Positions 7,944 through 54,877 of a DNA stretch of 64,000 nt are shown piece by piece; within the stretch, counting starts at the first letter, position 1; each line of letters opens with the position of its first letter. The stretch lies in assembly GCA_017857595.1 (NCBI GenBank), contig JAFMCU010000001.1, positions 10,497 to 74,496 on the forward strand, in the 5' to 3' direction. A program made the position numbers and the translations under genes. Source of the DNA: Thermoprotei archaeon (lineage in GTDB: Archaea > Thermoproteota > Thermoprotei > Gearchaeales > Gearchaeaceae). Under the pieces are notes generated by a model. That model searched no databases. It was not told where the DNA came from and saw nothing but the letters and a program-made list of their open reading frames with translations.

Positions 7944-8799
7944 TTTTTAAATCATTTAGAATGCAATTAAGTAAAAATGATGCTTTATCAGCATCTCTTT
8001 CTTCAATATTTTCCAAACTATATCTTGCTTTTTCAAACATTATAGTAAGGTCATGTAAATAGTTCGAATTATACCCTAGTAGCTTTTGTATATATATTTC
8101 AAATTCTCTTGCAGTATAATGCTTCGGATTATTGATACCCTTATTTTCTATAAATTCACAAAAAGACTTGTAACATTTTAATATATATTCTTTTGGAGAT
8201 TTGAATTTAAGTTCCGAATACTGTAAATTGAATTCTTCAATTTTATCTATAAACTCTTTTTTTATCTTTTCAACAACTGGTTTACTTTCTAAGATATTTT
8301 GCATTTTTAAATATCGAAGCAAATAAAATGATGAATAACCTAAAATAGCAATTATTGTAAGGAAAACAATAAGAAAGGTAACGGAATATAAATTAAATCC
8401 TGTAGTTAATACGCTGTTTGAGCTTGGGGTATTTAGGAATAATCTAGCACCAAAAATAAGAAAAATAATTATTAAAAGCATAGCAATCATTCTTGATACA
8501 AAATCTCTTCTTATTTCTCTACTTATAGTAATAAAAGTTAAGGTTATGCCTATAATAAAAATGAATATAATTATCAAAATAGTTGAAGGGATTATAGGAG
8601 GTGGAAGATTTATATTTTGTTGTGTAAAATTTGCTTGTGTAATATTTATTACAAAAATAGATTGAGGATTGACTTGCTTGCTTTGGTTTAGTTTAGAAGG
8701 CAAAAAATCGTAAGATAAATTTGTAAAAGATAAACTAATAATTAAAAATGAAAATAAAGGAATTGCTAATATAAGCATCACCCTAGATAGCCTATTCAC
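7936..8799 (-). CDS. membrane protein with C-terminal DUF4129-like domain, first gene of the MoxR module
   Basis: 287 aa with several TM helices. The C-terminal ...HYTAREFEIYIQKLL...FEKARYS... resembles DUF4129, a domain often found next to MoxR/DUF58. Confidence 0.5.
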   Translation of the reverse strand: MNRLSRVMLILAIPLFSFLIISLSFTNLSYDFLPSKLNQSKQVNPQSIFVINITQANFTQQNINLPPPIIPSTILIIIFIFIIGITLTFITISREIRRDFVSRMIAMLLIIIFLIFGARLFLNTPSSNSVLTTGFNLYSVTFLIVFLTIIAILGYSSFYLLRYLKMQNILESKPVVEKIKKEFIDKIEEFNLQYSELKFKSPKEYILKCYKSFCEFIENKGINNPKHYTAREFEIYIQKLLGYNSNYLHDLTIMFEKARYSLENIEERDADKASFLLNCILNDLKNG

Positions 8800-42358: not shown

Positions 42359-44461
42359 ATGGCTCGTGATCCTGTATGTGGAATGTATGTTGATGAGGAA
42401 AAAGCTACACTTATGTATACAGTTGATGAAATTACGTATTATTTCTGTAGTAAAAGTTGCCTGTTGATATTTTCCAAACCAGAAATTACTTATAAGAGAA
42501 TAAAATTCTTTACTTATTTATCATTCTCATTAGGCATTCTTGTTGTGATTTTAGAATATTTCATTTCATTTAATTTTTTATTACCAAATTTAGTATGGCT
42601 TTTGATTCTTTCAACACCTATCCAGTTTGGAGCTGGATATTATTTCTACGTAGGAATGAAAGATGCAATAAAATCGAAACAAGCAAATATGGACACACTT
42701 ATAGCAATCGGAACAACAGCAGCATGGTTATACAGCACAATATATACATTTCAATCTTTAAATATATTACCAGTTATACTTCCAAAGTCTGCGTCAGGTG
42801 TTTACTTCACCGAATCTTCTTTAATCATTGCATTCATATTATTAGGAAAATTAATAGAGCATAATATTAGAAGAAGAGCAAACAAAGCAATCAGTTATCT
42901 GAACGAGTTACTTCCAAAAAAGGCTAGAGTAATAAGGAACGGTGAAGAAATAGAAGTGCCTGCAGAAAAAGTTAAGAAGAATGAAATCGTTCTAGTTAAA
43001 CCTGGTGAATATACACCTGTTGACGGAATCATTATTGAAGGATTTTCTACTGTTGATCAGTCAGCTATAACAGGTGAAAGTTTACCAGTAGATAAACGTC
43101 CCGGAGACTTTGTCTATGCATCAACGATAAATAAAAATGGTTACTTAAAAATAAGGGCTTTGAAGATAGGTAAGAATACTACTATTTCCGATGTAATTGA
43201 GATGGTTGAAAAAGCAATACTAAGTAGAGCTCCTATTCAAAGATTAGCGGATAAAATATCTTCATATTTTGTACCAGCTGTTATAGCTATTGCAGTTTTT
43301 TCTTTTCTTTTCTGGTATTTAGTAGTAGGACTGCCTATAAATTTTGCACTTCTGGCTTTGATCTCTGTTTTAATTATAGCTTGTCCATGTGCATTAGGAA
43401 TAGCAACGCCTGCAGCAATACTTATCGGAGCAAGCAAAAGTGCACAAAAAGGAATTCTCATAAAAGGAGGTGAATATTTAGAGAAGGCATATAAAATAGA
43501 TACCATAGTTTTCGATAAAACAAAAACCTTGACAAAAGGAACAATTATTTTAAAGAAAATATATACTTTCGAAGGTTATTCAGAAGATGAAGCTCTTAAA
43601 TTTGCTTCAATAGCTGAAAAATTATCTGAACATCCTTTTAGCAAGGTCTTAATCGATGAAGCTAAAAAAAGAAATTTAGAAATTCCTGATCCTGATAAGT
43701 TCGAATATTTTCCTGGTGAAGGTATCAAAGCGGTTTACAATGGTCATTTAATTTTAATAGGAAACAGATCTTTAATGGAAAAAAATAGGATAAATTTAAC
43801 TAATATTACTCCTATATTAGAAGGTCTTGAGGCAGAAGGTAATACTGTGTTGATCCTTTCAATAGATAGCAAATTAGTTTCCTTATTTGCTATAACGGAT
43901 GAGATTAGGGGAGAAGCTAAGTATGTTATAGACTATTTGAAAAATAAAGGCATAAAGGTAGTAATGATAACAGGAGATAATAACAGAGTTGCTGCAGCTA
44001 TAGCTAAAAAGTTGGGAATAGACGAATATTATGCAGAAGTGAAACCTCAAGATAAGGCTGAAATTATAAAAGAGTTGAAGAAAAAAGGAAGAGTAGTTGC
44101 AATGGTCGGTGATGGAATAAACGATGCTCCTGCATTATCTATTGCAGATATAGGAATAGCTATTGGTGCTGGGAGTGATATTGCAAAGGAAGCAGGCGGA
44201 ATAATTCTCATCAATAATGACTTAAAAAGTGTTATTCACGCTATAGAAATAAGTAAAAAAACATACAGTAAAATTAAACAGAACTTATTCTGGGCTTTCT
44301 TTTATAATGTGATCTTAATTCCAATAGCTGCAGGTGCATTATATCCATTCTTTGGTATAATGCTAAATCCAATATTTGCAGCAATAGCTATGGCTTCAAG
44401 TTCGATTACAGTGGTAACCAATTCATTAACGTTAAACAGATATAGATTTGAATATGTATAA
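42359..44461 (+). CDS. copA: copper-translocating P1B-type ATPase with N-terminal TRASH/YHS metal-binding domain
   Basis: 700 aa. N-terminal DPVCGMYVDE...YYFCSKSC, TGES, CPC in TM6, SEHP, MITGDN and GDGINDAP. The phosphorylation motif reads DKTKT rather than DKTGT. Confidence 0.9.
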   Translation: MARDPVCGMYVDEEKATLMYTVDEITYYFCSKSCLLIFSKPEITYKRIKFFTYLSFSLGILVVILEYFISFNFLLPNLVWLLILSTPIQFGAGYYFYVGMKDAIKSKQANMDTLIAIGTTAAWLYSTIYTFQSLNILPVILPKSASGVYFTESSLIIAFILLGKLIEHNIRRRANKAISYLNELLPKKARVIRNGEEIEVPAEKVKKNEIVLVKPGEYTPVDGIIIEGFSTVDQSAITGESLPVDKRPGDFVYASTINKNGYLKIRALKIGKNTTISDVIEMVEKAILSRAPIQRLADKISSYFVPAVIAIAVFSFLFWYLVVGLPINFALLALISVLIIACPCALGIATPAAILIGASKSAQKGILIKGGEYLEKAYKIDTIVFDKTKTLTKGTIILKKIYTFEGYSEDEALKFASIAEKLSEHPFSKVLIDEAKKRNLEIPDPDKFEYFPGEGIKAVYNGHLILIGNRSLMEKNRINLTNITPILEGLEAEGNTVLILSIDSKLVSLFAITDEIRGEAKYVIDYLKNKGIKVVMITGDNNRVAAAIAKKLGIDEYYAEVKPQDKAEIIKELKKKGRVVAMVGDGINDAPALSIADIGIAIGAGSDIAKEAGGIILINNDLKSVIHAIEISKKTYSKIKQNLFWAFFYNVILIPIAAGALYPFFGIMLNPIFAAIAMASSSITVVTNSLTLNRYRFEYV

Positions 44462-44888
44462 AGAAATCGAAATAAAAAGCATAACAAAATTACAAATTAT
44501 ATTATTGTTGAGTTTAGGCCCTACACATGGATACAAATTGATCAAAGAAATAGAAAGAATTCAAGGAAGAAAACCTAGTCAAGCTCACATATATCCGTTT
44601 ATTGAAGACCTTATAAATAAGGGATATCTAAGAATAAAAGAGCGTGGCTCTAGAAATCAGAAAGTATATGAACTTACAGAAGAAGGTAAAGAAGCTGTAA
44701 ATTTAATTCTTAGCAGGTTTAGAAACATTTTAGAATATGTGCTAAATAATAAAGTTAATTCATGCATTAATTGCGGTTGTAAAATATATGAAGGTGGGTA
44801 TAGAGCAGAAATAAATGGAAAGGAAATGTTTTTCTGTTGTGAACATTGTTACAATAGCTTTAGAGTCTCGCATTTAAAGGAGAGGTAA
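44448..44888 (+). CDS. copper-responsive regulator candidate: PadR-like winged helix plus C-terminal TRASH domain
   Basis: 146 aa. LLLSLGPTHGYKLIKEI (PadR-like) and C-terminal CINCGCKIYEGG...FFCCEHCYNSF (TRASH cysteine pattern). Overlaps the copA end; the ATG at 44454 is a plausible start. Confidence 0.65.
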   Translation: MNMYKEIEIKSITKLQIILLLSLGPTHGYKLIKEIERIQGRKPSQAHIYPFIEDLINKGYLRIKERGSRNQKVYELTEEGKEAVNLILSRFRNILEYVLNNKVNSCINCGCKIYEGGYRAEINGKEMFFCCEHCYNSFRVSHLKER

Positions 44889-45121: not shown

Positions 45122-45673
45122 TCAGAATAATTCTATTACTATATCCATCAATCTTTCAATTCTTTCAACAAGTTCTCTTTCTTTTTGATTAAATTCCTTA
45201 AATATTTCTATTTCAAATGATTTGCCTTTGTAAGCATTTCCTATGAATGTTTCAGAAAATCTAATTAAATTTAACAATCTTTCAATATCGCCTGCATGCA
45301 AATATAAAGTTAAATCATTAATAACTAATATCTTGGAAGTTTTTTCTTCATAAATATTAAATAATTTTTCAATTGAATTTTTATTCCTTCTTGATATGTC
45401 ATAGAGTTCTTCAATATTCTTTGCATTCATCCTAGGACCCAAAATATTGGTTGTTAAATATCTTATATTTTTTACATCGATAAAGTCTCTAATTTTTCCC
45501 CCTATTTTATCTCTTCTTTCTGGAGCTAGATCTAATATAGTAATAAAATTTCCATATCCATTTACAATAAGCTTCTTAACTAAGAATGCAGTTAACTTAG
45601 TTTTACCTTTAGCAATATCTCCTACTATTAATGTTTTTTTATGTAAGAATTCTTCAATATTAATCCTCTCCAA
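45122..45673 (-). CDS. small P-loop NTPase/kinase-like protein, unknown function
   Basis: 183 aa. Walker A GDIAKGKT followed by ...ITILDLAPE (reminiscent of the Clp1/Grc3-type kinase P-loop context), and Walker B-like ILVINDL. Its start overlaps the thiW end by 14 nt. Confidence 0.5.
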   Translation of the reverse strand: MERINIEEFLHKKTLIVGDIAKGKTKLTAFLVKKLIVNGYGNFITILDLAPERRDKIGGKIRDFIDVKNIRYLTTNILGPRMNAKNIEELYDISRRNKNSIEKLFNIYEEKTSKILVINDLTLYLHAGDIERLLNLIRFSETFIGNAYKGKSFEIEIFKEFNQKERELVERIERLMDIVIELF

Positions 45674-46193
45674 TTATCTTTTTTCTATCATATCCAATAT
45701 GACTTAAATACCTTAGTATTGAATATCCTATTGTTGCTCCAATTAAAGAACTTGCAAGCCATCCTAAATAGAATACTAATAAAGCAAATGGCTTCCCTAT
45801 TAATGTTGGAGCAATAATATAGACTCCGATAGTAGCTCCTATTAAAACTGTTCCGATCGGCTCTGAAAAAGCTACTGCAATTGCACTTTTATATCTGAAA
45901 TGCTTCTTGAAAACATAATGATACAATATCCCTATAACAATAGCGCCAGGAATCCCTCCTGGTACTGCAAATATTGTCCCAACATGTAATGATATTCTTA
46001 TCAATCCAATAGCAAGTGCTATAAATGCTCCCCATAAAGGTCCTAATAATATTCCTGATAATACGTTTATAGCATGTTGTGTAGGATTGGCAAGACTCGG
46101 ACCTACAGGAAAAAAAGTAAAAGGAGATAATATAACACCAATTGCAATAAACATTGCAGCTAATGAGATTTTTCTGGCTCTATAATTTTGCAT
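45660..46193 (-). CDS. thiW: ThiW-like ECF-type S component (predicted thiazole transporter)
   Basis: 177 aa with about 5-6 TM helices. NPTQHAINVLSGILLGPLWG, VPGGIPGA and SEPIGTVLIG resemble the ThiW family as I recall it. Divergent from thiDN. Confidence 0.55.
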   Translation of the reverse strand: MQNYRARKISLAAMFIAIGVILSPFTFFPVGPSLANPTQHAINVLSGILLGPLWGAFIALAIGLIRISLHVGTIFAVPGGIPGAIVIGILYHYVFKKHFRYKSAIAVAFSEPIGTVLIGATIGVYIIAPTLIGKPFALLVFYLGWLASSLIGATIGYSILRYLSHIGYDRKKIIGED

Positions 46194-46247: not shown

Positions 46248-47678
46248 ATGTTTATCTTAGTTAAAGTTCTAACATTTAATGTAATGCAATTTAAAAACAA
46301 AATACCTGTTGCAATGACTATAGCCGGTAGCGATTCAGTTGGAGGTGCAGGGATTCAAGCTGATTTGAAAACTTTCGCAGCACTAGGAGTTCATGGAACT
46401 ACAGCAATCACAGCAATAACGGCACAAAATACTTATAGTGTCACTGCAATACAGGAAATTGATCCTAGCGTTGTTGTTAAACAAATAGAAACAGTTTATG
46501 AAGATACTGGTATAGATGCTGCTAAAACTGGCATGCTGAGTAACAAAGATATAATATCATCTGTAAGTAAGACTATTAAAAAGCTATCGATTCCTTTGGT
46601 TATAGATCCTGTAATGGTAGCTAAAAGTGGTGCAAGGCTGCTTAAAGAAGACGCAATTGAGGTTCTAATAAAAGAATTAATACCTCTTGCATGGGTTGTA
46701 ACGCCGAATATCCCAGAAGCTGAAATAATTTCAGGAATTAAGATAAATAGCGCTGATGATATGGAATTAGCAGCTAAGAAAATTTTTCAAAGAACAAACT
46801 GCAAAGCGGTAATTGTAAAAGGAGGACATCTAAACGTTGAAAAAAGTACAGATGTAATCTTTTATGATGGAAGAATTGTAAGGATAGAATCAGATAGAAT
46901 CCAAACAAAAAATACACATGGAACTGGTTGTAGCTTCTCTGCAGCAATAGCAGCTGAAATTTCAAAAGGGAATGATATATTAACCTCAATAAAGAGGGCT
47001 AAAGATTTTATAAATTATGCGATAAAGTATGCTTTACCCATAGGTAAAGGTCATGGACCTGTAAATCCAACTTCTTGGCTAGAAATAAGAGCTAACAAAT
47101 TATCTGTGTTGGAGAATATGAGAATCGCTATTAATATTCTTGAATCTGAAAAGCTTATAGCAAATTTAGTTCCGGAAGTTCAAATGAATATAGGAATGGC
47201 CCTAGATAGCTTGTATGCAAGAAGTATAGAAGACGTTGCTGCAATTCCGGGAAGAATTGTTAAAATAAAAGACAAGGTTAAATCTTCTTCATATCCCGAA
47301 TTTGGAGCTTCTTCACATATTGCAAGGGCAATTCTTAAAGCAATGGAATATGATATTAGGTATAAATCAGCAGCAAATATTAAGTATGATGAGCTTATAT
47401 TGGAAGCGGCAAAGAGACTTGGGTTTTCTATTTCATATTATGATAGAAATGAAGAACCAGAAGACTTAAAAAATAAGGAAGGAGCAACAATTCCTTGGGG
47501 TGTTGAAATTGCAATAAAAAGGCTAAATCACGTTCCAGATATCATCTACGATAAAGGAGATATTGGTAAAGAACCTATAATTAAAGTATTTGGATATGAT
47601 TCAATTGATGTGGCAAATAAATTAGTCAAATTAGCAAAAATGTATAATGATTTAAAAGCTAAACAATTTCTTCCATAA
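46248..47678 (+). CDS. thiDN: bifunctional ThiD (HMP/HMP-P kinase) - ThiN (thiamine-phosphate synthase) fusion
   Basis: 476 aa. N-terminal half PVAMTIAGSDSVGGAGIQADLKTF...HGTGCSFSAAIAA (ThiD). C-terminal half VPEVQMNIG...IPGRIVK...FGASSHIARAIL (ThiN). The likely true start is the ATG at 46284. Confidence 0.85.
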   Translation: MFILVKVLTFNVMQFKNKIPVAMTIAGSDSVGGAGIQADLKTFAALGVHGTTAITAITAQNTYSVTAIQEIDPSVVVKQIETVYEDTGIDAAKTGMLSNKDIISSVSKTIKKLSIPLVIDPVMVAKSGARLLKEDAIEVLIKELIPLAWVVTPNIPEAEIISGIKINSADDMELAAKKIFQRTNCKAVIVKGGHLNVEKSTDVIFYDGRIVRIESDRIQTKNTHGTGCSFSAAIAAEISKGNDILTSIKRAKDFINYAIKYALPIGKGHGPVNPTSWLEIRANKLSVLENMRIAINILESEKLIANLVPEVQMNIGMALDSLYARSIEDVAAIPGRIVKIKDKVKSSSYPEFGASSHIARAILKAMEYDIRYKSAANIKYDELILEAAKRLGFSISYYDRNEEPEDLKNKEGATIPWGVEIAIKRLNHVPDIIYDKGDIGKEPIIKVFGYDSIDVANKLVKLAKMYNDLKAKQFLP

Positions 47679-48948
47679 TTACTTTTCTATTGAATTTTTC
47701 TTCGTATATAGTTAATCTTGACTTGTATATTACAATTTCTTTAGGCAATTTTCTCATATTATATCTAGAAGCCATCGAATAACCATAAGCACCTGCATTC
47801 AATATAGCAAGTATATCGTTCTCATTCGGCAATGGCATTTCTCTACGAACAGCAAAAACATCTCCTGTTTCACATAAGTTTCCTGCTATAGTTATTAATT
47901 TTTTATTTTCGCTTTCAACGTTATTACAATTAACAATTTCGTGATAAGAGCCATAGAGTACAGGTCTTATTAAATGATTAAATCCACTATCAACACCGAC
48001 GATCAAATCTCCATATCTTTCTTTTATATCCGTAACCTTTACTAGCAATATTCCTGAATCTCCAACAATATATCTTCCAGGTTCAAAGGCTAAGTTGTCA
48101 ATGCTATAATTTAACTCTTTTAAAATTTCAGATATACCTATTGAATATTTTTCCAATGGGAAATCTTGCTCCTTTTCAGAGTATCTAATACCGGGTCCAC
48201 CACCAAAGTTGATAAATTCTAGCTTATATCCCAGTGTATCCTCTAATTTTTTTGCTTGTTGCACAAGAATTCTGGCAGCAGAAAGAAATTCATTCAGTTC
48301 TTCTTCTGTTTTCCAATTGGAACCAACATGCATATGCAGACCAACGATTTTTAGATTTTCTTCTTTTGCTAACTTTACAGCATTGTCAATTTGTTCAATA
48401 GATATTGAGAATTTAATTGGCACGTTATGTGCTTCTTTACCTGCAGTTATTGTTCTCCAATTGTGTCCTAAACCCGGCATTCCAGGGTCTATCCTTAATG
48501 ATATAGGTATATCTTTTCTTATTTTTGATATTTTTTTTATTTGAGATATAGAATCTGCATTTATTCTTACCCCTAAGCTTAAAACTTTCTTCAAATCTTC
48601 ATAAGAAACACTTACACCTGTAAATAATATTCTTTCAGGAGCATAACCATTAGCTATAGCGTATTCAACCTCTTCAGGTGATACACAATCTAGATAAGAA
48701 CCTTCGCTTTTAAGTATTTCCAACAATTTTGGATTGTTATTAGCTTTCATTGAGTAATGTATTCTTATTATTTGCGAAAGATATCTCTTAAGAGTTCTAT
48801 AGAAAATTCTGTATTTATCTAGAACTCTATTTCCATTATAAACATATATAGGCGTTCCAAACCTTTTTGCAAGCTCTTCTGCAGAAATGTTTGCTATGTA
48901 TAACTTGTTGTTTATAACAGATAAATGATTTGGAATTTCCCACCACAT
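47659..48948 (-). CDS. lysA: diaminopimelate decarboxylase
   Basis: 429 aa. HYSMKAN PLP lysine, GGGPGIRY, EPGRYIVG and CETGD. Confidence 0.9.
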   Translation of the reverse strand: MWWEIPNHLSVINNKLYIANISAEELAKRFGTPIYVYNGNRVLDKYRIFYRTLKRYLSQIIRIHYSMKANNNPKLLEILKSEGSYLDCVSPEEVEYAIANGYAPERILFTGVSVSYEDLKKVLSLGVRINADSISQIKKISKIRKDIPISLRIDPGMPGLGHNWRTITAGKEAHNVPIKFSISIEQIDNAVKLAKEENLKIVGLHMHVGSNWKTEEELNEFLSAARILVQQAKKLEDTLGYKLEFINFGGGPGIRYSEKEQDFPLEKYSIGISEILKELNYSIDNLAFEPGRYIVGDSGILLVKVTDIKERYGDLIVGVDSGFNHLIRPVLYGSYHEIVNCNNVESENKKLITIAGNLCETGDVFAVRREMPLPNENDILAILNAGAYGYSMASRYNMRKLPKEIVIYKSRLTIYEEKFNRKVIMEEIV

Positions 48949-48949
48949 T

Positions 48950-49759
48950 TTATAAGTTTATAAAGGCTATTCCTTCCATTATTTTATAAACCTTTCCTGC
49001 AAGCTTTATATTTGAATCATTTTCAATCCTAATTTTAATAATTCCACCAGGCATCTCAACAGAAATTTCATTTTCAACCTTTCCTAATTTATACGCAGCG
49101 AATGCAGAAGCCGAGGCTCCTGTTCCAGATGAGAGTGTTGCACCTGCGCCTCTTTCCCAAATAAACGTATGTATTTTATTCTTATTCTCTACATAGAAGA
49201 ATTCAACGTTTACTCTGTTGGGGAATGCAGGATAATTTTCTATCAAGGATCCTAGTTCATTTAAATATTTTTTTGCTGTATCTTTTGATTCACATTCGAT
49301 TGCAAAATGTGGATTGCCCACTGAAATGTAAAGACCTTTTAATTTTTTATTTGATACTGAAATCTCTAGTATACCTAAAAGATTTGCTTCTCCTAAATTT
49401 ATTTCAATAGATTTATCTTTTAATATTCTAACTTTAGCTATCCTTCCGCCTTCTTTTCCTCCTACTTCAACTTCTCCATATTCTTCTATTATTCCTTTGG
49501 AATGTAAATACGCGGAAAATATTCGTAATCCATTTCCTGAGACTTCAGCTTCGCTTCCATCGGGATTGAAAACCCGCATTCTTGCATTTGCAATACTACT
49601 TTTATTATGAATTAGTATTCCGTCTGATCCAATCCCAATACTTTTATCAGAAAGTAATTTTGATAAATCTGAGTATATTTTTTCTTTTTCAAAATTCAAA
49701 TCTTCGATTACAATATAACTGTTACCTTGTGCGTGGTATTTTTCTATTTTTATATCCAT
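48950..49759 (-). CDS. dapF: DapF-family (diaminopimelate epimerase fold) protein lacking both catalytic cysteines
   Basis: 269 aa and collinear with DapF: HAQGNSY, FNPDGSEAEVSGNGLR, SVGNPH and WERGAGATLSSGTGASA. Both canonical Cys positions are Ser. Confidence 0.75.
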   Translation of the reverse strand: MDIKIEKYHAQGNSYIVIEDLNFEKEKIYSDLSKLLSDKSIGIGSDGILIHNKSSIANARMRVFNPDGSEAEVSGNGLRIFSAYLHSKGIIEEYGEVEVGGKEGGRIAKVRILKDKSIEINLGEANLLGILEISVSNKKLKGLYISVGNPHFAIECESKDTAKKYLNELGSLIENYPAFPNRVNVEFFYVENKNKIHTFIWERGAGATLSSGTGASASAFAAYKLGKVENEISVEMPGGIIKIRIENDSNIKLAGKVYKIMEGIAFINL

Positions 49760-50934
49760 TTGGAATTAATAAGTATTTCACAAGCGAGCTTTATATCATC
49801 GACGCTTGGAACTAATGCGAATCTTGCATATGTATTTATATCTTCGTTTGGATCTAAGCACAGCATTTTACTTGGGGTAACATTAATACCTATTTTTCTT
49901 TCCTTATCTAACTCCAAAATTTTTTTTGCTGTCTCCATTGAATTGTTTGATAATTTAGCCCACACATAAAATGTTGATTCTGCGTAGTACTTTATATCCA
50001 AAGATCTTAATGTTTTTATAAGTATATCCCTTTTGGTCCTATAAAGTTTCCTATTTTCTTCCACATGCCTTTCATCATCTAAGGCAGCTATAGCCGCTTC
50101 TTGTATAGCGTTTGGGATTCCAGAGTCTATTTGCATTTTTAACATTCTAAAATATTTGATTATTTCTTTTCCACCAAAAACAAATCCAACTCTTAAACCT
50201 GTCGCATTACTTCTTTTTGATAGCGAATTGAAAACTATCAAGTTGCTCCAGTCATCAGAAAAATTTAATATAGAATAAGGTTTTTCATCGAAATAAATTT
50301 CGCTATAACATTCATCTGAAGCTACTATTATATCTTTATCTCTTGCTATTTCTATTATTTCTTCATATACTTTTTTTCCTGCTACTTTAGATGTAGGATT
50401 GTTTGGGTAGTTGAGATAAATCAATTTAACTTTTTTGAACTCTTTTATTTTTTCTTCGATCTCATCTACATTTGGTAGAAAATCGTTTTTTTCACTCAAT
50501 TTGTAAAAAACCGGTATTCCACCCGCAAATACAGTTCCAGTTTTATAAGGAGGATATCCAATTGACGGAATCAGTGCGTAATCACCGGTATTTAAAAATG
50601 CTAATGGGAAATGGAATATTGCTTCTTTTGCACCTGCGGTTATTGTTATTTGTTCATCATAATCTACATAAATATTGAACCTTCTTTTCAACCATTCTGA
50701 ATATTTTTCTCTTAGAACCTTCATGCCTATATAAGAAGGATAACCTGATCTTGCATGCTTGACTGCACCTTCTTGTAACGCTTTTATAGCCCCTTCAAAT
50801 AGCGGTTCTGTTGGGTCGCCTACACCAAAATCTATTATCTTGAATCCTCTTTTTATTGCCTCTTCCTTAGCACGATCTATTTCATAAAAGGCATATGTAG
50901 TAAATTGTTTTAAATTGTTTGATGGATTAATCAT
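49750..50934 (-). CDS. dapL: class I aminotransferase, probable LL-diaminopimelate aminotransferase (DapL-type)
   Basis: 394 aa. NYPNNPT and SLSKRSNATGLRVG (PLP lysine). Sits between dapB and dapF, with no dapD, dapE or ddh in the cluster. Confidence 0.65.
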   Translation of the reverse strand: MINPSNNLKQFTTYAFYEIDRAKEEAIKRGFKIIDFGVGDPTEPLFEGAIKALQEGAVKHARSGYPSYIGMKVLREKYSEWLKRRFNIYVDYDEQITITAGAKEAIFHFPLAFLNTGDYALIPSIGYPPYKTGTVFAGGIPVFYKLSEKNDFLPNVDEIEEKIKEFKKVKLIYLNYPNNPTSKVAGKKVYEEIIEIARDKDIIVASDECYSEIYFDEKPYSILNFSDDWSNLIVFNSLSKRSNATGLRVGFVFGGKEIIKYFRMLKMQIDSGIPNAIQEAAIAALDDERHVEENRKLYRTKRDILIKTLRSLDIKYYAESTFYVWAKLSNNSMETAKKILELDKERKIGINVTPSKMLCLDPNEDINTYARFALVPSVDDIKLACEILINSKWI

Positions 50935-50964: not shown

Positions 50965-51720
50965 TTAAAATTGATTAAAGATTATATCTTCCAGCACTTG
51001 ACCAAAATTATACATACCTTTTTTGCCAATTATCCATTTTGCAGCAATTAAAGCGCCTTTAGCAAAGCTTGTTCTTCCTTTTGAACTATGAGAAATCTCA
51101 ATAGTTTCATATTCGCTATCGAAGCCTACAAGGTGGAAGCCATGATGATATCCAGCTCTTAGAGATACGACGTGTAATTCATTTTTTTCTATTCTTCTAT
51201 TTAATCTATCAAACTGCAGTTTGTTTTTACTAGTAAAATTTTTCAATATTATATTTGCTACTTCCTTCGCAGTTCCTGAAGGAGAATCGGCTTTCATTCT
51301 ATGATGCATTTCGAAAACGTACGGATCGAAGTCTTCGAACTTTGAAATTAATGTGGATGCATAGTTTATAATCTTAAAAAATATGTTAGCACCAATGGAA
51401 AAATTTGGACCGTAAACCATTCCGACTTTGTTTTCTTCAACAATTTTTGTAACGATAGGAAGTCTATCATACCAGCCCGTTGTACCTACAACAATATTTA
51501 CTTTATTTTCAGCAACTGCTTTAACGTTTTCTAAAACTGCATCAGGTTTAGAAAAATCTATTGCAACATCCACATCTTTCATAGATTCATTTGTTATTCT
51601 ATTATGAGTAGCTTCAGGGTCTGTGGGATCTATAATAGATTTTACATTTATATTAAGTATATCTGCAAGCTTTTTAACTTCATGACCCATTCTACCATAT
51701 CCTATTATTGATATGTTCAT
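50965..51720 (-). CDS. dapB: 4-hydroxy-tetrahydrodipicolinate reductase
   Basis: 251 aa. IIGYGRMG nucleotide fold and EMHHRMKADSPSGTA signature. Confidence 0.85.
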   Translation of the reverse strand: MNISIIGYGRMGHEVKKLADILNINVKSIIDPTDPEATHNRITNESMKDVDVAIDFSKPDAVLENVKAVAENKVNIVVGTTGWYDRLPIVTKIVEENKVGMVYGPNFSIGANIFFKIINYASTLISKFEDFDPYVFEMHHRMKADSPSGTAKEVANIILKNFTSKNKLQFDRLNRRIEKNELHVVSLRAGYHHGFHLVGFDSEYETIEISHSSKGRTSFAKGALIAAKWIIGKKGMYNFGQVLEDIIFNQF

Positions 51721-52616
51721 TAATGAACAGGAATTTCATAGTATCTTTTGATTACAGATTTTAATTTATCAAGATTTTGTTGGCTCATTTCGCATAGTGG
51801 AGGTCTACAAGGACCTGCTGGCAATCCTACTAGATTCATAGCAGTTTTGATTGGAATAGGATTCGTTTCTAAGAATGCTGCCTTAAATATTGGCATTAAA
51901 TTATAATGAATTTCTCTAGCCTTACTTAAATTGCCTTCAAGAATATTATTTACTAAATCACAAACTTGTTTAGGTAGGAGATTGCTTACAACAGATATTA
52001 CTCCCTTACCACCACATGCCATTATTGGCAAAGTTAAATTATCATCACCACTAAGAATTGTTTTATCATTTTTTGTCATTGATATTATATCCATTATTTG
52101 TTGCATGTTTCCTGAAGCTTCTTTAATTGAAACTATATTATCTATTTCCAATAATCTTGCTTCTGTTAAAACATCTATATTTACTCCTGTCCTTCCTGGA
52201 ATATTGTAGAGTATAATAGGTAGGTCAACACTTTCAGCTATAGCTTTGAAATGCCTATAAAGCCCTTCTTGAGTTGGTTTATTGTAATAAGGCGCTACGA
52301 TTAAAGCTCCATCTACACCAATTTCACTCGCTTCTTTCGTCATTCTAATTGATTCAGCAGTTGAATAAGTGCCTGTACCCGCAATAACAGGTATTTTTCC
52401 ATTTGCTTCATCTACTGCAACTTTTAAAATCTGCTTTCTTTCTTCTTCTGTTATTGTTGGTGATTCTCCTGTAGTTCCTAATACGACTATTCCTGAAACG
52501 TTGTTTTCTAATTGAAATCTTATTAATTGTCTTAGTCCTTCATAATCAACTTCTAAGTTTTTCTTAAAAGGTGTTACTATCGCAGTTATGCAACCTACAA
52601 ATCCTTTCAAGCTCAT
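51720..52616 (-). CDS. dapA: 4-hydroxy-tetrahydrodipicolinate synthase
   Basis: 298 aa. GTTGES, YNIPGRTG and IKEASG (Schiff-base Lys). TAATG junction with dapB. Confidence 0.9.
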   Translation of the reverse strand: MSLKGFVGCITAIVTPFKKNLEVDYEGLRQLIRFQLENNVSGIVVLGTTGESPTITEEERKQILKVAVDEANGKIPVIAGTGTYSTAESIRMTKEASEIGVDGALIVAPYYNKPTQEGLYRHFKAIAESVDLPIILYNIPGRTGVNIDVLTEARLLEIDNIVSIKEASGNMQQIMDIISMTKNDKTILSGDDNLTLPIMACGGKGVISVVSNLLPKQVCDLVNNILEGNLSKAREIHYNLMPIFKAAFLETNPIPIKTAMNLVGLPAGPCRPPLCEMSQQNLDKLKSVIKRYYEIPVH

Positions 52617-52725: not shown

Positions 52726-53148
52726 ATGACGATGGACGAATTAGATAACATAATAATAAGTGAACTTGAATTAGATGGAAGGAAGCCATTTACTGAAATT
52801 GCAAAAAAACTTAATCTAAGTGAGGGGACAATAAGAAAAAGAGTTGAAAAGCTTGTCAAAGAAGGAAAAATTAAATTCACAGTTATTATAACAACTAAAA
52901 TTGGTTTTTCCGCAATTGTTATGATAAAAACGAGCCCTCAGATGAAAACATCTTCTATAGTAGAATCTATTAAAAAGATAAAGGAAGTAAAAGAAGTTTA
53001 TGAAGTAGCAGGGGATGCAGACATAATAGTAAGAATTTCATGTAACAATGCAGAAGAGTTCAATGAGATAATTGATGAAATACGTTCTATACCTAATGTT
53101 CTTGAAACAAAAACATATACGATATTAAAAATTTCATATCCAAGATGA
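52726..53148 (+). CDS. Lrp/AsnC-family transcriptional regulator (divergent from the lysine operon)
   Basis: 140 aa. HTH FTEIAKKLNLSEGTIRKRVEKL plus a C-terminal RAM domain. Confidence 0.85.
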   Translation: MTMDELDNIIISELELDGRKPFTEIAKKLNLSEGTIRKRVEKLVKEGKIKFTVIITTKIGFSAIVMIKTSPQMKTSSIVESIKKIKEVKEVYEVAGDADIIVRISCNNAEEFNEIIDEIRSIPNVLETKTYTILKISYPR

Positions 53149-53149
53149 A

Positions 53150-53497
53150 ATGTTCTCGAATTTCTTAGGAGCTAAAATAGAAGAATTAAATGAAAGATAT
53201 GTAAAAGTAAAAGGTAAAGTTAAAGAAGAGTATCTAAATGTTCATAATACTGCACATGGTTCTTATATTTTTGCTCTTGCAGATATCGCATTTGAAGCCA
53301 TAAGTAATTATTCAGAAAAGTCAGTTGCTCTACATATGGACATAGATTTTAGGAATCCAGCCTATTTAAATGATGAATTAACTGTTGAAGGCTTCTTAGA
53401 GAGTAAAGGTAACAAAACTTCCTTGTATAGATTCGTAGTTAAGAGAAAAGAAGATATGATTGCTGAAATTCTTGCCCTAGCTTATCACATTAGGTAG
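53150..53497 (+). CDS. PaaI-type hotdog-fold thioesterase
   Basis: 115 aa. NVHNTAHGSYIFALADIAF is typical of PaaI/YbgC-like thioesterases. Confidence 0.65.
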   Translation: MFSNFLGAKIEELNERYVKVKGKVKEEYLNVHNTAHGSYIFALADIAFEAISNYSEKSVALHMDIDFRNPAYLNDELTVEGFLESKGNKTSLYRFVVKRKEDMIAEILALAYHIR

Positions 53498-54877
53498 AAA
53501 TTTGTTGATATCCTGCAGTTGAATTTTGATAGTATGCAAAATTCCATGTTGGTGGGGCATCTAGTGTAAACGGTAGCATGTAGCTAGCTGGAAGACTGAT
53601 TATCTTTCCGTCAAGAGTTGTTATCTGCATGTTAATCAACTCTCCGTTCATCTTATAGTAGCTTATTGGATATAAATTACAGCATGGTTGAAATTCAAGT
53701 TGAGTATATGTTCCATAAAATGCAGTTCCGTTGTATGGTATATACGCAATAAAAACAGAATTTGTCTCAACATCTTTAATATAGAATTCAATTTGATCTG
53801 TGGTCATGTTATAAATTATGGAAAGGAATAGATGAGTTGGCATCGGAGATACAAAACCACTTTGTACAGCTGGATTTTGAGACTGTAAAAAGTAATGAGC
53901 TATACAATTTTTACCAGGTACATACCAAGGCGCTATAGTGCCATTGGGATTCAAATCTATACCGAGTTGGAAAAATCCCACACAGCTTGACCTTGTTGCT
54001 CCGTAGTAGTTCATAGCATTAATTTGGAAACTTAATATGCCAACTTGTGGTGTTGACCAGTTAAACAAAATCATTTCAGCACTCAATTTATAGAATGCTG
54101 GCAACAATTGTACCAATAATCCTGACCCTTGCCCATAACCTTCCATGTTGTTATAACCTGGTATATATATATAGGAATTTCATAAGTGCTTACTACGATG
54201 TTTGTATAATAAACAATTCCATTTAATGTTAGTATAATTGCTCCTGAATATTGATAAGCATTAGGAACATTAAAAGTAGCTGCAATTTGATCTGTCCTAT
54301 CGACGAATACTTGCATAATCCATCCTTCATTAGGATTGGAAGGAGTGCTTGCATTGTATACATTAGCAGCTATGTAGACCCATCCATTAGGATAAGCAGT
54401 ATTTTGTGGAACTTTTTCTATCAACTTTAGATTGTTTAAATCTGATCCTGCATAAACGTAGCCATTCGAAATTCCTACAATTGCAACAGGTTTGTAATTA
54501 TATGCATATAATCCAAAGAATCCTACTCCTTTTTCAGCATTAATTAATACTTGGAACGACAAAAATTGATCCCCTTGGACAAATCCTGAATCAGCTATAC
54601 TAACTTGTACATTATTTCCTTTTGTTTTGGAAACTAAAACAGGCTCTCCTAAATAATTTATAACGTTCGTTACATATATGGAACCGCTTATAGGTATCCA
54701 ACCATCCAGTTGCATATCTTCGAAATTAGATACGAAAGCAAAAGAGCCACTTGTTGAAGTTGTTGGAGCATACTTAATTTTATGCGTTGTGGTTATGGAT
54801 ATGTTTGCAAAAGAATTTGGTAATAAAAACGAAATTAATGATAAAGATACTAATACTATTAGAAAAATTTTCTTCAT
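53490..54877 (-). pseudogene. secreted glycoprotein-like protein split into two overlapping frames at a (TA)6 tract (frameshifted or phase-variable gene)
   Basis: ORF 54083-54877 has a signal peptide (MKKIFLIVLVSLSLISFLLPNSFA) and ends shortly after the TA tract. The second frame (ORF 53490-54146) is open from 54180. Removing one TA unit joins them in frame (...EIPIYIPGYNNMEGYGQGSG...), giving about 460 aa. Confidence 0.55.
54163..54174. repeat. (TA)6 dinucleotide repeat at the frameshift point
   Basis: The plus strand reads GG TATATATATATA GG. The tract lies inside the 54083-54180 region where both reading frames are open. Confidence 0.9.

What the first reader, a model, noticed from the sequence alone, without database searches (positions are those of the whole stretch)
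48950..49759. DapF-fold protein inside the lysine operon has serine at both catalytic cysteine positions
The 269-aa product is collinear with diaminopimelate epimerases (HAQGNSY, FNPDGSEAE, SVGNPH, WERGAG), but both catalytic sites differ.
- The residue before GNG is Ser (AEVSGNGLR; codon TCA, plus-strand 49538-49540). DapF has the catalytic Cys there (E. coli Cys73, xCGNGxR).
- The second site reads ERGAGATLSSGTG (Ser codon TCT, 49127-49129). DapF has Cys there (E. coli Cys217, ERGAGxTxACGxG).
- The only cysteine in the protein (AIECESK) is at neither site.

The established mechanism is a two-base thiol/thiolate epimerisation, and engineered Cys-to-Ser DapF mutants are reported to be severely impaired. 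TCA differs from either Cys codon at two positions, so this is not a single base-call error. The gene is nevertheless translationally coupled inside dapA-dapB-aminotransferase-dapF-lysA, with a 10-nt overlap upstream and a 1-nt spacer downstream. In that pathway, LL- to meso-DAP conversion is obligatory for LysA. The protein is therefore a Ser/Ser epimerase with unusual chemistry, a repurposed enzyme or pseudo-enzyme, or the pathway logic differs in this organism.
Basis: partly seen in the sequence, partly recalled or inferred. Interest (0 to 1): 0.7.

Follow-up and report, generated by a model that had tools for sequence, protein, structure and literature searches.

The report
Ser/Ser DapF in lysine operon
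A lysine-pathway enzyme thought to need two cysteines to flip the handedness of its substrate has two serines here, and this is a widespread, repeatedly evolved, conserved natural variant sitting in the normal pathway slot, for which I found no published characterisation.

Summary
The 269-aa ORF at 48950-49759(-) is a full-length DapF homologue. Ser74 (TCA, 49540-49538) and Ser211 (TCT, 49129-49127) sit at the two catalytic Cys positions. The gene lies inside dapA-dapB-dapL-like-dapF-lysA.

It is not an error: the identical protein occurs on at least 24 contigs from independent metagenomes.

It is not unique. Of the 150 nearest cluster representatives among 1.84 billion proteins, 68 are Ser/Ser and 75 Cys/Cys. 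Ser/Ser falls in at least four groups: this Thermoproteota clade, Aenigmarchaeota, Dehalococcoidia/SAR202 and a large bacterial clade. At least three arose separately, supported by bootstrapped trees; Ser codon families (TCN vs AGY) separate this clade from the others.

In archaea and Dehalococcoidia, Ser/Ser, Ser/Cys and Cys/Cys proteins occupy the same operon slot. All ten non-catalytic DAP-binding residues are invariant. dN/dS is about 0.1. LysA and DapL show no accompanying change.

Best reading (0.6): a working LL/meso-DAP epimerase with an oxygen-based catalytic pair. That runs against the accepted thiol mechanism and against Cys-to-Ser mutant data. Activity is untested, and a second dapF elsewhere in the genome could not be excluded. 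I found no paper describing natural Ser/Ser DapF.

The parts
48950..49759 (-). dapF orthologue with a Ser/Ser catalytic pair (269 aa)
   Evidence: Pfam DAP_epimerase x2, 146 bits. TIGR00652 DapF equivalog 200.5 bits vs cutoff 114.65. PDB DapF hits E=6e-34. AF2 pLDDT 92.3 and Foldseek TM 0.83-0.90 to DapF structures.
49538..49540 (-). Ser74 codon TCA at the position of catalytic Cys73 (E. coli numbering)
   Evidence: The predicted helix starts at residue 75, so Ser74 caps a helix N-terminus as Cys73 does.
49127..49129 (-). Ser211 codon TCT at the position of catalytic Cys217
   Evidence: The predicted helix starts at residue 212.
51720..52616 (-). dapA (4-hydroxy-tetrahydrodipicolinate synthase), first gene of the operon
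   Evidence: TIGR00674 382.8 bits, cutoff 206.
50965..51720 (-). dapB (4-hydroxy-tetrahydrodipicolinate reductase)
   Evidence: TIGR00036 156.4 bits, cutoff 122.
49750..50934 (-). DapL-like class I/II aminotransferase (probable LL-DAP aminotransferase)
   Evidence: Best NCBIfam hits are LL-DAP aminotransferase models, but below their cutoffs (351.6 vs 507). The same gene precedes Cys/Cys dapF in related archaeal operons.
47659..48948 (-). lysA (meso-diaminopimelate decarboxylase), last gene of the operon
   Evidence: TIGR01048 344.3 bits, cutoff 297.9. No residue change is shared by Ser/Ser-operon LysA and absent from Cys/Cys-operon LysA.
52726..53148 (+). Lrp/AsnC-family regulator divergent from dapA (probable operon regulator; inferred)
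   Evidence: Pfam AsnC_trans_reg plus HTH_AsnC. An AsnC-family gene sits next to dapA in L001-L003 and L004 as well.

Best explanation
The gene is the organism's diaminopimelate epimerase. It is a true orthologue of DapF that converts LL-DAP, made by the DapL-like aminotransferase, into meso-DAP for LysA. Both catalytic cysteines have been replaced by serines.

Shown here: it has the DapF fold and every non-catalytic DAP-binding residue. It sits in the dapF slot of a translationally coupled lysine operon. It is under purifying selection. It belongs to a large natural Ser/Ser class that arose several times from Cys/Cys ancestors, with Ser/Cys forms existing alongside.

Inferred: the two Ser hydroxyls, each capping a helix N-terminus, act as the base/acid pair (alkoxide/hydroxyl) in the closed, desolvated active site. 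They are tuned by convergent second-shell changes (E. coli numbering: V206I, A216S, A221S; M72K in two lineages). Turnover may be lower than in thiol enzymes, yet sufficient because LysA pulls the equilibrium.

A possible benefit is immunity to the disulfide or thiol-modification inactivation known for Cys/Cys DapF. This is speculative.
For: - Family and fold.
- Binding residues: N11, N64, G74, N75, N157, H159, N190, E208, R209, G218 and S/T219 (E. coli numbering) are invariant in 10 archaeal Ser/Ser, 85 bacterial Ser/Ser, 21 Cys/Cys and 5 Ser/Cys proteins, apart from one Cys/Cys sequence with Met at R209. Most of their C. glutamicum equivalents were shown by mutagenesis to be essential (PMC5296763).
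- Positional orthology in archaea: the operon dapA-dapB-(ask-asd)-dapL-[dapF]-lysA carries Ser/Ser in the window, L001-3, L015, L016 and L022. It carries Cys/Cys in L011, L012, L017-L021, L023 and L024, and Ser/Cys in L013.
- Positional orthology in bacteria: Dehalococcoidia/SAR202 Ser/Ser dapF sits beside dapL exactly as Cys/Cys dapF does in sister lineages.
- No acceleration: Ser/Ser and Cys/Cys orthologues are 68-72% identical, like their operon neighbours.
- Selection: dN/dS is about 0.11. dN is 0.26, against 0.21 for dapB.
- Independent origins: archaeal clade bootstrap 99 (10 S/S, 24 C/C, 6 S/C); Dehalococcoidia bootstrap 92; bacterial K-clade bootstrap 96. The site-1 Ser codon is TCA in the window clade, but AGY in Aenigmarchaeota, the K-clade and most Dehalococcoidia.
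- Convergent co-substitutions.
- Fusions: LysA-DapF(Ser/Ser) and Alr-DapF(Ser/Ser) proteins exist.
- Partner enzymes show no co-variation.
- Low demand is plausible: E. coli lacking dapF has no growth defect (preprint 10.1101/2024.10.14.618325).
Against: - No activity data exist for any natural Ser/Ser DapF that I could find.
- Engineered Cys-to-Ser changes in this enzyme class hinder catalysis or greatly reduce turnover (PMC12039745; PMC11602996). A serine hydroxyl is a far poorer acid than a thiol.
- I could not scan any whole genome for a second, canonical dapF, a ddh, or a PLP-dependent DapF2. Only the 64-kb window was checked, and it has none.
- In gammaproteobacteria (Cellvibrio, Paraglaciecola) the Ser/Ser gene is not next to lysA and shares no conserved neighbour. 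There it may be an extra paralogue with another role.
- DapF has the highest dN of the five operon genes.
Confidence: 0.6

Rival explanations
1. Catalytically dead or nearly dead DapF remnant (pseudo-enzyme). It would be kept for a non-catalytic role such as a complex partner, substrate channel or regulator. Another enzyme, for example a broad-specificity or PLP-dependent racemase or a second dapF elsewhere, would supply meso-DAP.
For: - Cys-to-Ser mutants of DapF-fold racemases are strongly impaired.
- E. coli tolerates loss of dapF because another activity supplies meso-DAP at low efficiency.
- E. coli DapF has a moonlighting partner, RppH (titles; PDB 6d13).
- PLP-dependent DapF2 epimerases exist.
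- Whole genomes could not be searched.
Against: - A binding-only role would not be expected to keep every catalytic-subsite residue invariant, including the helix-capping G-N-G and G-T/S motifs and His159/Glu208, across at least four groups of Ser/Ser proteins.
- It would not be expected to produce the same second-shell substitutions convergently.
- The gene stays translationally coupled in the dapF slot.
- No rate acceleration relative to Cys/Cys orthologues.
- Fusions to LysA and alanine racemase suggest an enzymatic partner role.
Confidence: 0.2
2. Repurposed enzyme. It would still bind DAP or a close analogue but catalyse a different reaction, or act on a different amino acid, as happened when proline-racemase relatives became dehydratases or DapF relatives became histidine, Dab or O-ureidoserine racemases.
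For: - The superfamily repeatedly changes function (HisR, CntK, PddB, DcsC, PhzF).
- Ser/Thr replacement of Cys marks dehydratases in the proline racemase superfamily.
- The bacterial K-clade gene has no conserved lysine context. It also occurs fused to GNAT, methyltransferase or GGACT domains.
Against: - The distal-site residues that read the second stereocentre of DAP (N64, N157, N190, R209) are invariant. These are the residues that differ in relatives with other substrates.
- The window protein scores far above the DapF equivalog cutoff and far below the CntK and bifunctional models.
- DAP has no leaving group for a dehydratase-type reaction (established chemistry).
- The operon needs exactly an epimerase between DapL and LysA. 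Cys/Cys orthologues fill the identical slot.
Confidence: 0.12
3. Artefact: base-calling or assembly error, or recoding, so that the real protein has Cys at both sites.
For: None beyond prior expectation.
Against: - The identical protein is on at least 24 contigs from independent assemblies in JGI, ENA and Logan.
- Orthologues at 64-67% identity keep TCA/TCT.
- Hundreds of homologues are Ser/Ser with several different Ser codons.
- TCN and AGY are not known recoding targets (established knowledge).
Confidence: 0.01

Closest known systems
Canonical diaminopimelate epimerase DapF (EC 5.1.1.7; TIGR00652, PF01678; e.g. E. coli, H. influenzae, C. glutamicum, Anabaena structures)
   Same: - Same two-domain fold: TM 0.83-0.90.
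- Same length.
- Same DAP-binding residues.
- Same operon role between the aminotransferase and LysA.
- Orthologous by tree and synteny.
   Different: Both catalytic cysteines (Cys73 and Cys217) are serines. The thiol/thiolate two-base mechanism cannot operate as described. No disulfide redox switch of the C. glutamicum type is possible.
Engineered C73S and C217S DapF (PDB 2q9h, 2q9j), and C-to-S mutants of HisR and CntK
   Same: Serine at a catalytic position in the same fold. These structures are among the top structural matches.
   Different: These are single laboratory substitutions that hinder catalysis and are used to trap the open form. The window protein is a natural double substitution. 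It is conserved, selected, and accompanied by convergent second-shell changes.
Ser/Cys 4-hydroxyproline 2-epimerase (B9JQV3) and Ser/Thr trans-3-hydroxyproline dehydratase (B9K4G4) of the proline racemase superfamily (Zhao et al. 2014, PMC4113996)
   Same: A related two-domain fold with catalytic residues on opposing helix N-termini. [quoted passage not shown] The Ser/Cys DapF variants found here (L013, L026, L030, L046) are the direct analogue.
   Different: Different superfamily branch: 12-17% identity, TM about 0.75. Different substrate. One Cys (epimerase) or a non-catalytic Thr (dehydratase) remains. No Ser/Ser epimerase is described there.
PhzF and other non-thiol members of the DapF-like fold
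   Same: They share the fold: TM about 0.77. They show the scaffold can work without a Cys pair.
   Different: They catalyse other reactions on non-amino-acid substrates, with 12% identity. The window protein gives no PhzF-family hit.

Membership tests
DapF / diaminopimelate epimerase (by homology and orthology) | Two tandem DAP_epimerase domains; whole-protein score above the curated equivalog cutoff | tested here: met
   PF01678 with 2 stretches, 146 bits. TIGR00652 200.5 bits vs cutoff 114.65.
DapF / diaminopimelate epimerase (by homology and orthology) | DapF fold with the catalytic residues at the N-termini of two opposed helices | tested here: met
   AF2 pLDDT 92.3, with helices starting at residues 75 and 212. 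Foldseek top 26 hits are DapF structures plus the DapF-related O-ureidoserine racemase 7vdy, TM up to 0.90. Model coordinates could not be inspected, so distances were not measured.
DapF / diaminopimelate epimerase (by homology and orthology) | Conserved DAP-binding residues (E. coli N11, N64, G74, N75, N157, N190, E208, R209, G218, S/T219) | tested here: met
   All are present in the window protein as N13, N65, G75, N76, N149, N184, E202, R203, G212 and T213. They are invariant across the compared Ser/Ser, Ser/Cys and Cys/Cys groups, apart from one Cys/Cys sequence at R209. Most of their C. glutamicum equivalents were shown essential by mutagenesis.
DapF / diaminopimelate epimerase (by homology and orthology) | Gene context in DAP/lysine biosynthesis, in the slot occupied by dapF in relatives | tested here: met
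DapF as a thiol/thiolate two-base epimerase (mechanistic class) | Catalytic Cys pair (Cys73/Cys217, E. coli numbering) | tested here: not met
   Ser74 and Ser211. The only Cys (155) is not conserved. The protein should therefore not be filed as a canonical thiol DapF.
DapF / diaminopimelate epimerase (function) | Interconversion of LL- and meso-DAP | not testable with these tools
   Needs an enzyme assay or complementation.
Histidine racemase CntK/HisR, bifunctional chlamydial DapF, PhzF | Score above the family's curated cutoff | tested here: not met
   CntK 31 bits vs cutoff 300. Bifunctional DapF 71 bits vs cutoff 350. No PhzF hit.
Natural Ser/Ser DapF class (defined here) | Ser at both catalytic positions with all other active-site residues retained, recurring in independent lineages | tested here: met
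   95 of the top 120 word-indexed hits. 68 of the 150 best representatives from an exhaustive search. 25 Ser/Ser among 80 named-genome loci, plus 9 whose second site was only resolved as Ser. Clade supports 92-100. Codon families.

The most novel reading that the evidence does not exclude
Natural Ser/Ser DapFs are fully competent, cofactor-independent amino-acid epimerases. They would use a serine alkoxide/hydroxyl pair instead of thiolate/thiol. This solution would have evolved convergently at least three to four times (Thermoproteota, Aenigmarchaeota, Dehalococcoidia/SAR202, and a very large bacterial clade with an invariant Lys before the first Ser). It may confer resistance to oxidation, thiol-reactive metals or thiol-targeting inhibitors. 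That would overturn the view that a Cys pair is obligatory for this enzyme class. It would also mean that aziridine-type or other thiol-directed DapF inhibitors miss a large share of organisms.
Probability: 0.45. Interest if true: 0.85.

Novelty: new variant of a known kind. Interest (0 to 1): 0.72.

Why it matters
How a cofactor-free racemase removes an alpha-proton (pKa about 29) with a thiolate (pKa about 8.5) is still presented as an unusual mechanism (PMC12039745 abstract).

A large natural class of orthologues swaps both thiols for hydroxyls while keeping everything else. That is a ready-made experiment on this question. Matched Ser/Ser, Ser/Cys and Cys/Cys orthologues at about 70% identity exist in the same operon slot.

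It also matters for annotation, because curated DapF models accept these proteins silently. It matters for lysine-pathway reconstruction in archaea and Dehalococcoidia. It matters for DapF-directed antibacterial design, which targets the catalytic thiols.

Tried and rejected
- Second dapF in the window: tblastn with Ser/Ser, Cys/Cys and Ser/Cys queries found only the one gene.
- Rfam scan of the window: no hits.
- Conserved neighbours of the bacterial Ser/Ser K-clade: 13 loci share no partner gene, so context gives no functional clue there.
- Compensating changes in LysA or the aminotransferase that might indicate altered pathway logic: none found.
- Literature: seven full-text searches found no report of a natural Ser/Ser DapF and no kinetic values for C73S or C217S. 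The library lacks most subscription papers, so absence is not proof.
- The GapMind 2026 preprint's DapF2 is a PLP-type alanine-racemase relative, not this family.
- Whole-genome co-occurrence of Ser/Ser and Cys/Cys genes could not be tested. The single genome-collection scan used N-terminal patterns and returns only 20-kb loci.
- AF2 model coordinates are not exposed, so Ser-Ser distance and the orientation of residue 73 (Lys in other lineages) could not be measured.
- dS between the window and its nearest relatives is saturated, so the dN/dS value is only approximate.
- Sequencing error and recoding were rejected.

Full report
**1. The observation**

The ORF at 48950..49759 on the minus strand encodes 269 aa.
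- Reading the DNA, residue 74 is Ser (TCA, 49540-49538) in AEVSGNGLR. Residue 211 is Ser (TCT, 49129-49127) in ERGAGATLSSGTG.
- Alignments to solved DapF structures and to E. coli DapF taken from NC_000913.3 put these serines exactly at catalytic Cys73 and Cys217.
- The single cysteine (Cys155) is not conserved even among the closest relatives.
- The gene overlaps the upstream aminotransferase gene by 10 nt and is 1 nt from lysA. dapA and dapB overlap by 1 nt.
- The neighbours are dapA, dapB and lysA above curated cutoffs, plus a DapL-like aminotransferase below cutoff.

**2. It is a DapF by descent and by architecture**
- Pfam finds two DAP_epimerase domains.
- The NCBIfam DapF equivalog scores 200 bits against a cutoff of 115. 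The histidine-racemase and bifunctional-DapF models score far below their cutoffs.
- An AlphaFold2 model is confident (pLDDT 92.3). Helices begin right after Ser74 and Ser211.
- The top 26 structural neighbours are DapF structures plus the DapF-related O-ureidoserine racemase 7vdy, with TM 0.83-0.90 for the best of them.
- The ten residues that bind DAP in the C. glutamicum complex, most of which abolish activity when mutated (PMC5296763), are all present. Together with His159 they are invariant in every group compared, apart from one Cys/Cys sequence with Met at the R209 position.

**3. It is not an error**
- The identical protein is in the public collection on at least 24 contigs from independent JGI, ENA and Logan assemblies.
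- Several record names carry YNP tags (BSEYNP, BSDYNP). From my own knowledge I read these as Yellowstone hot-spring metagenomes.
- The closest named genome is the single-cell assembly Crenarchaeote SCGC AAA261-N23 (Thermoproteota), at 67% identity, with the same operon and the same Ser codons.
- The window has 30% G+C.

**4. It is not unique**
- Among the top 120 hits of the word-indexed search, 95 are Ser/Ser, 21 Cys/Cys and 5 Ser/Cys.
- That search is biased toward words shared with the query. I therefore ran the exhaustive phmmer search against 1.84 billion cluster representatives. Of the best 150, 68 are Ser/Ser, 75 Cys/Cys, 2 Ser/Cys, 2 Cys/Ser and 3 other or partial.
- Among the 80 named-genome loci from the genome scan, classed 25 as Ser/Ser, and 9 more resolve as Ser/Ser (34 in all).
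- That scan added a further Ser/Ser lineage, Dehalococcoidia/SAR202. It also showed Ser/Cys in Micrarchaeota.

**5. Independent origins**

I built a bootstrapped neighbour-joining tree with the catalytic and co-varying columns removed. It gives:

| Clade | Members | Bootstrap |
|---|---|---|
| Archaeal | 40 (10 Ser/Ser, 24 Cys/Cys, 6 Ser/Cys) | 99 |
| Dehalococcoidia | 29 (22 Ser/Ser, 6 Cys/Cys, 1 Ser/Cys) | 92 |
| — its Ser/Ser subclade | 22 | 100 |
| Bacterial Ser/Ser "K-clade" | 22 | 96 |
| Window clade | 5 | 83 |

- Codons agree. The first-site Ser is TCA in the window clade, but AGY in Aenigmarchaeota, the K-clade and most Dehalococcoidia.
- TGY-to-TCY and TGY-to-AGY are different single steps from Cys. 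The two Ser codon families do not interconvert directly.
- So Ser/Ser arose at least three times with strong tree support. Codon families indicate a fourth origin inside the archaea.
- NJ is a crude method, and deep branch orders have low support.

**6. Same slot, same partners**
- Related archaea carry dapA-dapB-(ask-asd)-dapL-[dapF]-lysA with Ser/Ser, Cys/Cys or Ser/Cys in the bracketed position:
  - Ser/Ser: window, L001-3, L015, L016, L022.
  - Cys/Cys: L011, L012, L017-L021, L023, L024.
  - Ser/Cys: L013.
- Both states occur within the single phylum Aenigmarchaeota: L016 is Ser/Ser and L020 is Cys/Cys.
- Ser/Ser and Cys/Cys orthologues there are 68-72% identical. Their DapA, DapB and LysA neighbours are 69-78% identical. 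The switch therefore happened without a burst of change in the rest of the protein.
- In Dehalococcoidia the Ser/Ser gene is adjacent to dapL. Cys/Cys dapF sits the same way in sister Dehalococcoidales, actinomycete and clostridial MAGs.
- LysA and the aminotransferase show no residue shared by the two archaeal Ser/Ser lineages and absent from the Cys/Cys operons. This gives no sign of altered pathway logic.
- Rosetta-stone hints:
  - One cluster is a LysA-DapF(Ser/Ser) fusion. It is a singleton, so treat it with caution.
  - Another is an alanine racemase-DapF(Ser/Ser) fusion, with 4 members on contigs up to 299 kb.
  - Each half passes its equivalog cutoff.

**7. Selection**
- Against the 67%-identical orthologue, dapF has dN 0.26 and dN/dS about 0.11. 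dS is saturated, so the ratio is approximate.
- For comparison, dN is 0.21 for dapB and 0.16 for lysA. DapF is the fastest of the five operon genes but clearly constrained.
- Several second-shell positions change the same way in separate Ser/Ser lineages (E. coli numbering):
  - V206 to I in 3 of 4 lineages.
  - A216 to S in 3 of 4.
  - A221 to S in 3 of 4.
  - M72 to K in the K-clade and Aenigmarchaeota. The window clade has V or I there.
- This looks like retuning, not decay.

**8. How it most likely works**

Shown: a DapF orthologue with an intact DAP pocket and a Ser/Ser pair, in the pathway position that requires LL-to-meso epimerisation.

Inferred:
- The serine hydroxyls at the two helix N-termini act as the acid/base pair.
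- A stronger but harder-to-form alkoxide base is plausible in the closed, desolvated site.
- Turnover might be modest, but LysA removes meso-DAP irreversibly. These archaea presumably need DAP only for lysine.
- E. coli even grows without dapF.

A possible advantage is freedom from the inactivating disulfide that forms between the catalytic cysteines of C. glutamicum DapF, or from thiol-reactive agents. This is speculation. Ser/Ser lineages include both aerobes and anaerobes by name.

**9. Against**
- Engineered Cys-to-Ser variants in this enzyme class hinder catalysis or greatly reduce turnover.
- No natural Ser/Ser enzyme has been assayed as far as I could find.
- I could not search whole genomes for a second epimerase.
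- In gammaproteobacteria the K-clade gene is not next to lysA and shares no conserved neighbour. It is probably an additional copy whose role may differ.

**10. Verdict**
A weak or pseudo-enzyme stands at 0.2, repurposing at 0.12, and artefact at about 0.01.
- By descent it is a DapF. It fails the defining mechanistic feature, the Cys pair. I therefore file it as a new variant of a known kind, not as a canonical member.
- No paper describing natural Ser/Ser DapF turned up in seven searches. That library is incomplete.

Noticed in passing
L013:3354-4187; L026 and L046:10001-10792; L030:10001-10837: Ser/Cys 'half-way' DapF variants: first site Ser with a TCN codon, second site Cys, Met kept before the Ser. 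They occur in an archaeal lysine operon (L013), in two Micrarchaeota MAGs and in one Dehalococcoidia MAG. Two Cys/Ser representatives also exist (P0205, P0252). They may be evolutionary intermediates and are the direct analogue of the Ser/Cys hydroxyproline epimerase.
   Followed up: partly
L007-L010, L027, L035, L040, L043, L052, L072, L073, L078, L086 (dapF match near 8001 or 10001 in each): A very large bacterial Ser/Ser clade with near-invariant motifs EAEKSGNGLR and RGAGYTLASGSSS. The preceding residue is Lys in the 85 top word-search members, and mostly Lys, with some I/R/T/M, among more distant representatives. It is found in Cellvibrio, Paraglaciecola, Saprospiraceae, Planctomycetota, Sulfurihydrogenibium, Desulfosporosinus and Sporomusa. 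It has no conserved gene neighbourhood. In gammaproteobacteria it is not next to lysA and is probably an extra copy. Its role is unknown.
   Followed up: partly
P0156 (736 aa), P0199 (664 aa), P0117 (452 aa), P0140 (534 aa), P0171 (453 aa): The Ser/Ser DapF domain occurs fused to LysA, to alanine racemase, to a GNAT acetyltransferase, to a SAM methyltransferase, and to a gamma-glutamyl cyclotransferase-like domain. The LysA and Alr fusions fit a DAP/peptidoglycan role. The other fusions are unexplained.
   Followed up: partly
L028, L029, L032, L033, L038, L039, L042, L044, L045, L050, L051, L053, L057, L062, L065, L069, L074, L075, L079, L080, L082, L090: Dehalococcoidia/SAR202 and Thermoflexus genomes, several of them complete 2-3 Mb chromosomes, carry Ser/Ser dapF (EAEMSGNGIR...TLSSGTGS) immediately upstream of dapL. 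These are good targets for a whole-genome check for a second epimerase.
   Followed up: partly
window 52726-53148 (+): An Lrp/AsnC-family regulator is transcribed divergently from dapA. An AsnC-family gene also flanks dapA in the 66%-identity relatives (L001-3) and in Aenigmarchaeota (L004). It is a likely lysine-responsive regulator of the operon.
   Followed up: partly
window 46248-47678 (+) and 45660-46193 (-): A ThiD-ThiN fusion (HMP-P kinase plus thiamine-phosphate synthase ThiN) converges on lysA, with a 20-nt overlap of the 3' ends (47659-47678). A ThiW thiamine-precursor transporter lies beside it. The same arrangement is seen in L001-3.
   Followed up: no
window 42359-44461 (+) and 44448-44888 (+): A YHS-domain P-type (copper-type) ATPase overlaps by 14 nt a PadR-family regulator carrying a C-terminal TRASH-like Cys-rich domain. 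This is a probable metal-resistance pair and is conserved in L001-3.
   Followed up: no
window 53490-54146 (-) and 54083-54877 (-): Two overlapping ORFs (218 and 264 aa), the first rich in N, Y and Q, have no Pfam hit. The 183-aa ORF at 45122-45673 (-) also has no Pfam hit.
   Followed up: no
L016:8491-9537 versus L022:5674-6831: The aminotransferase in one Aenigmarchaeota Ser/Ser operon (L016) is only 36-38% identical to that of its close relatives (L022, L011), while the other four operon proteins are 68-82% identical. This suggests replacement of the aminotransferase gene within the operon.
   Followed up: no
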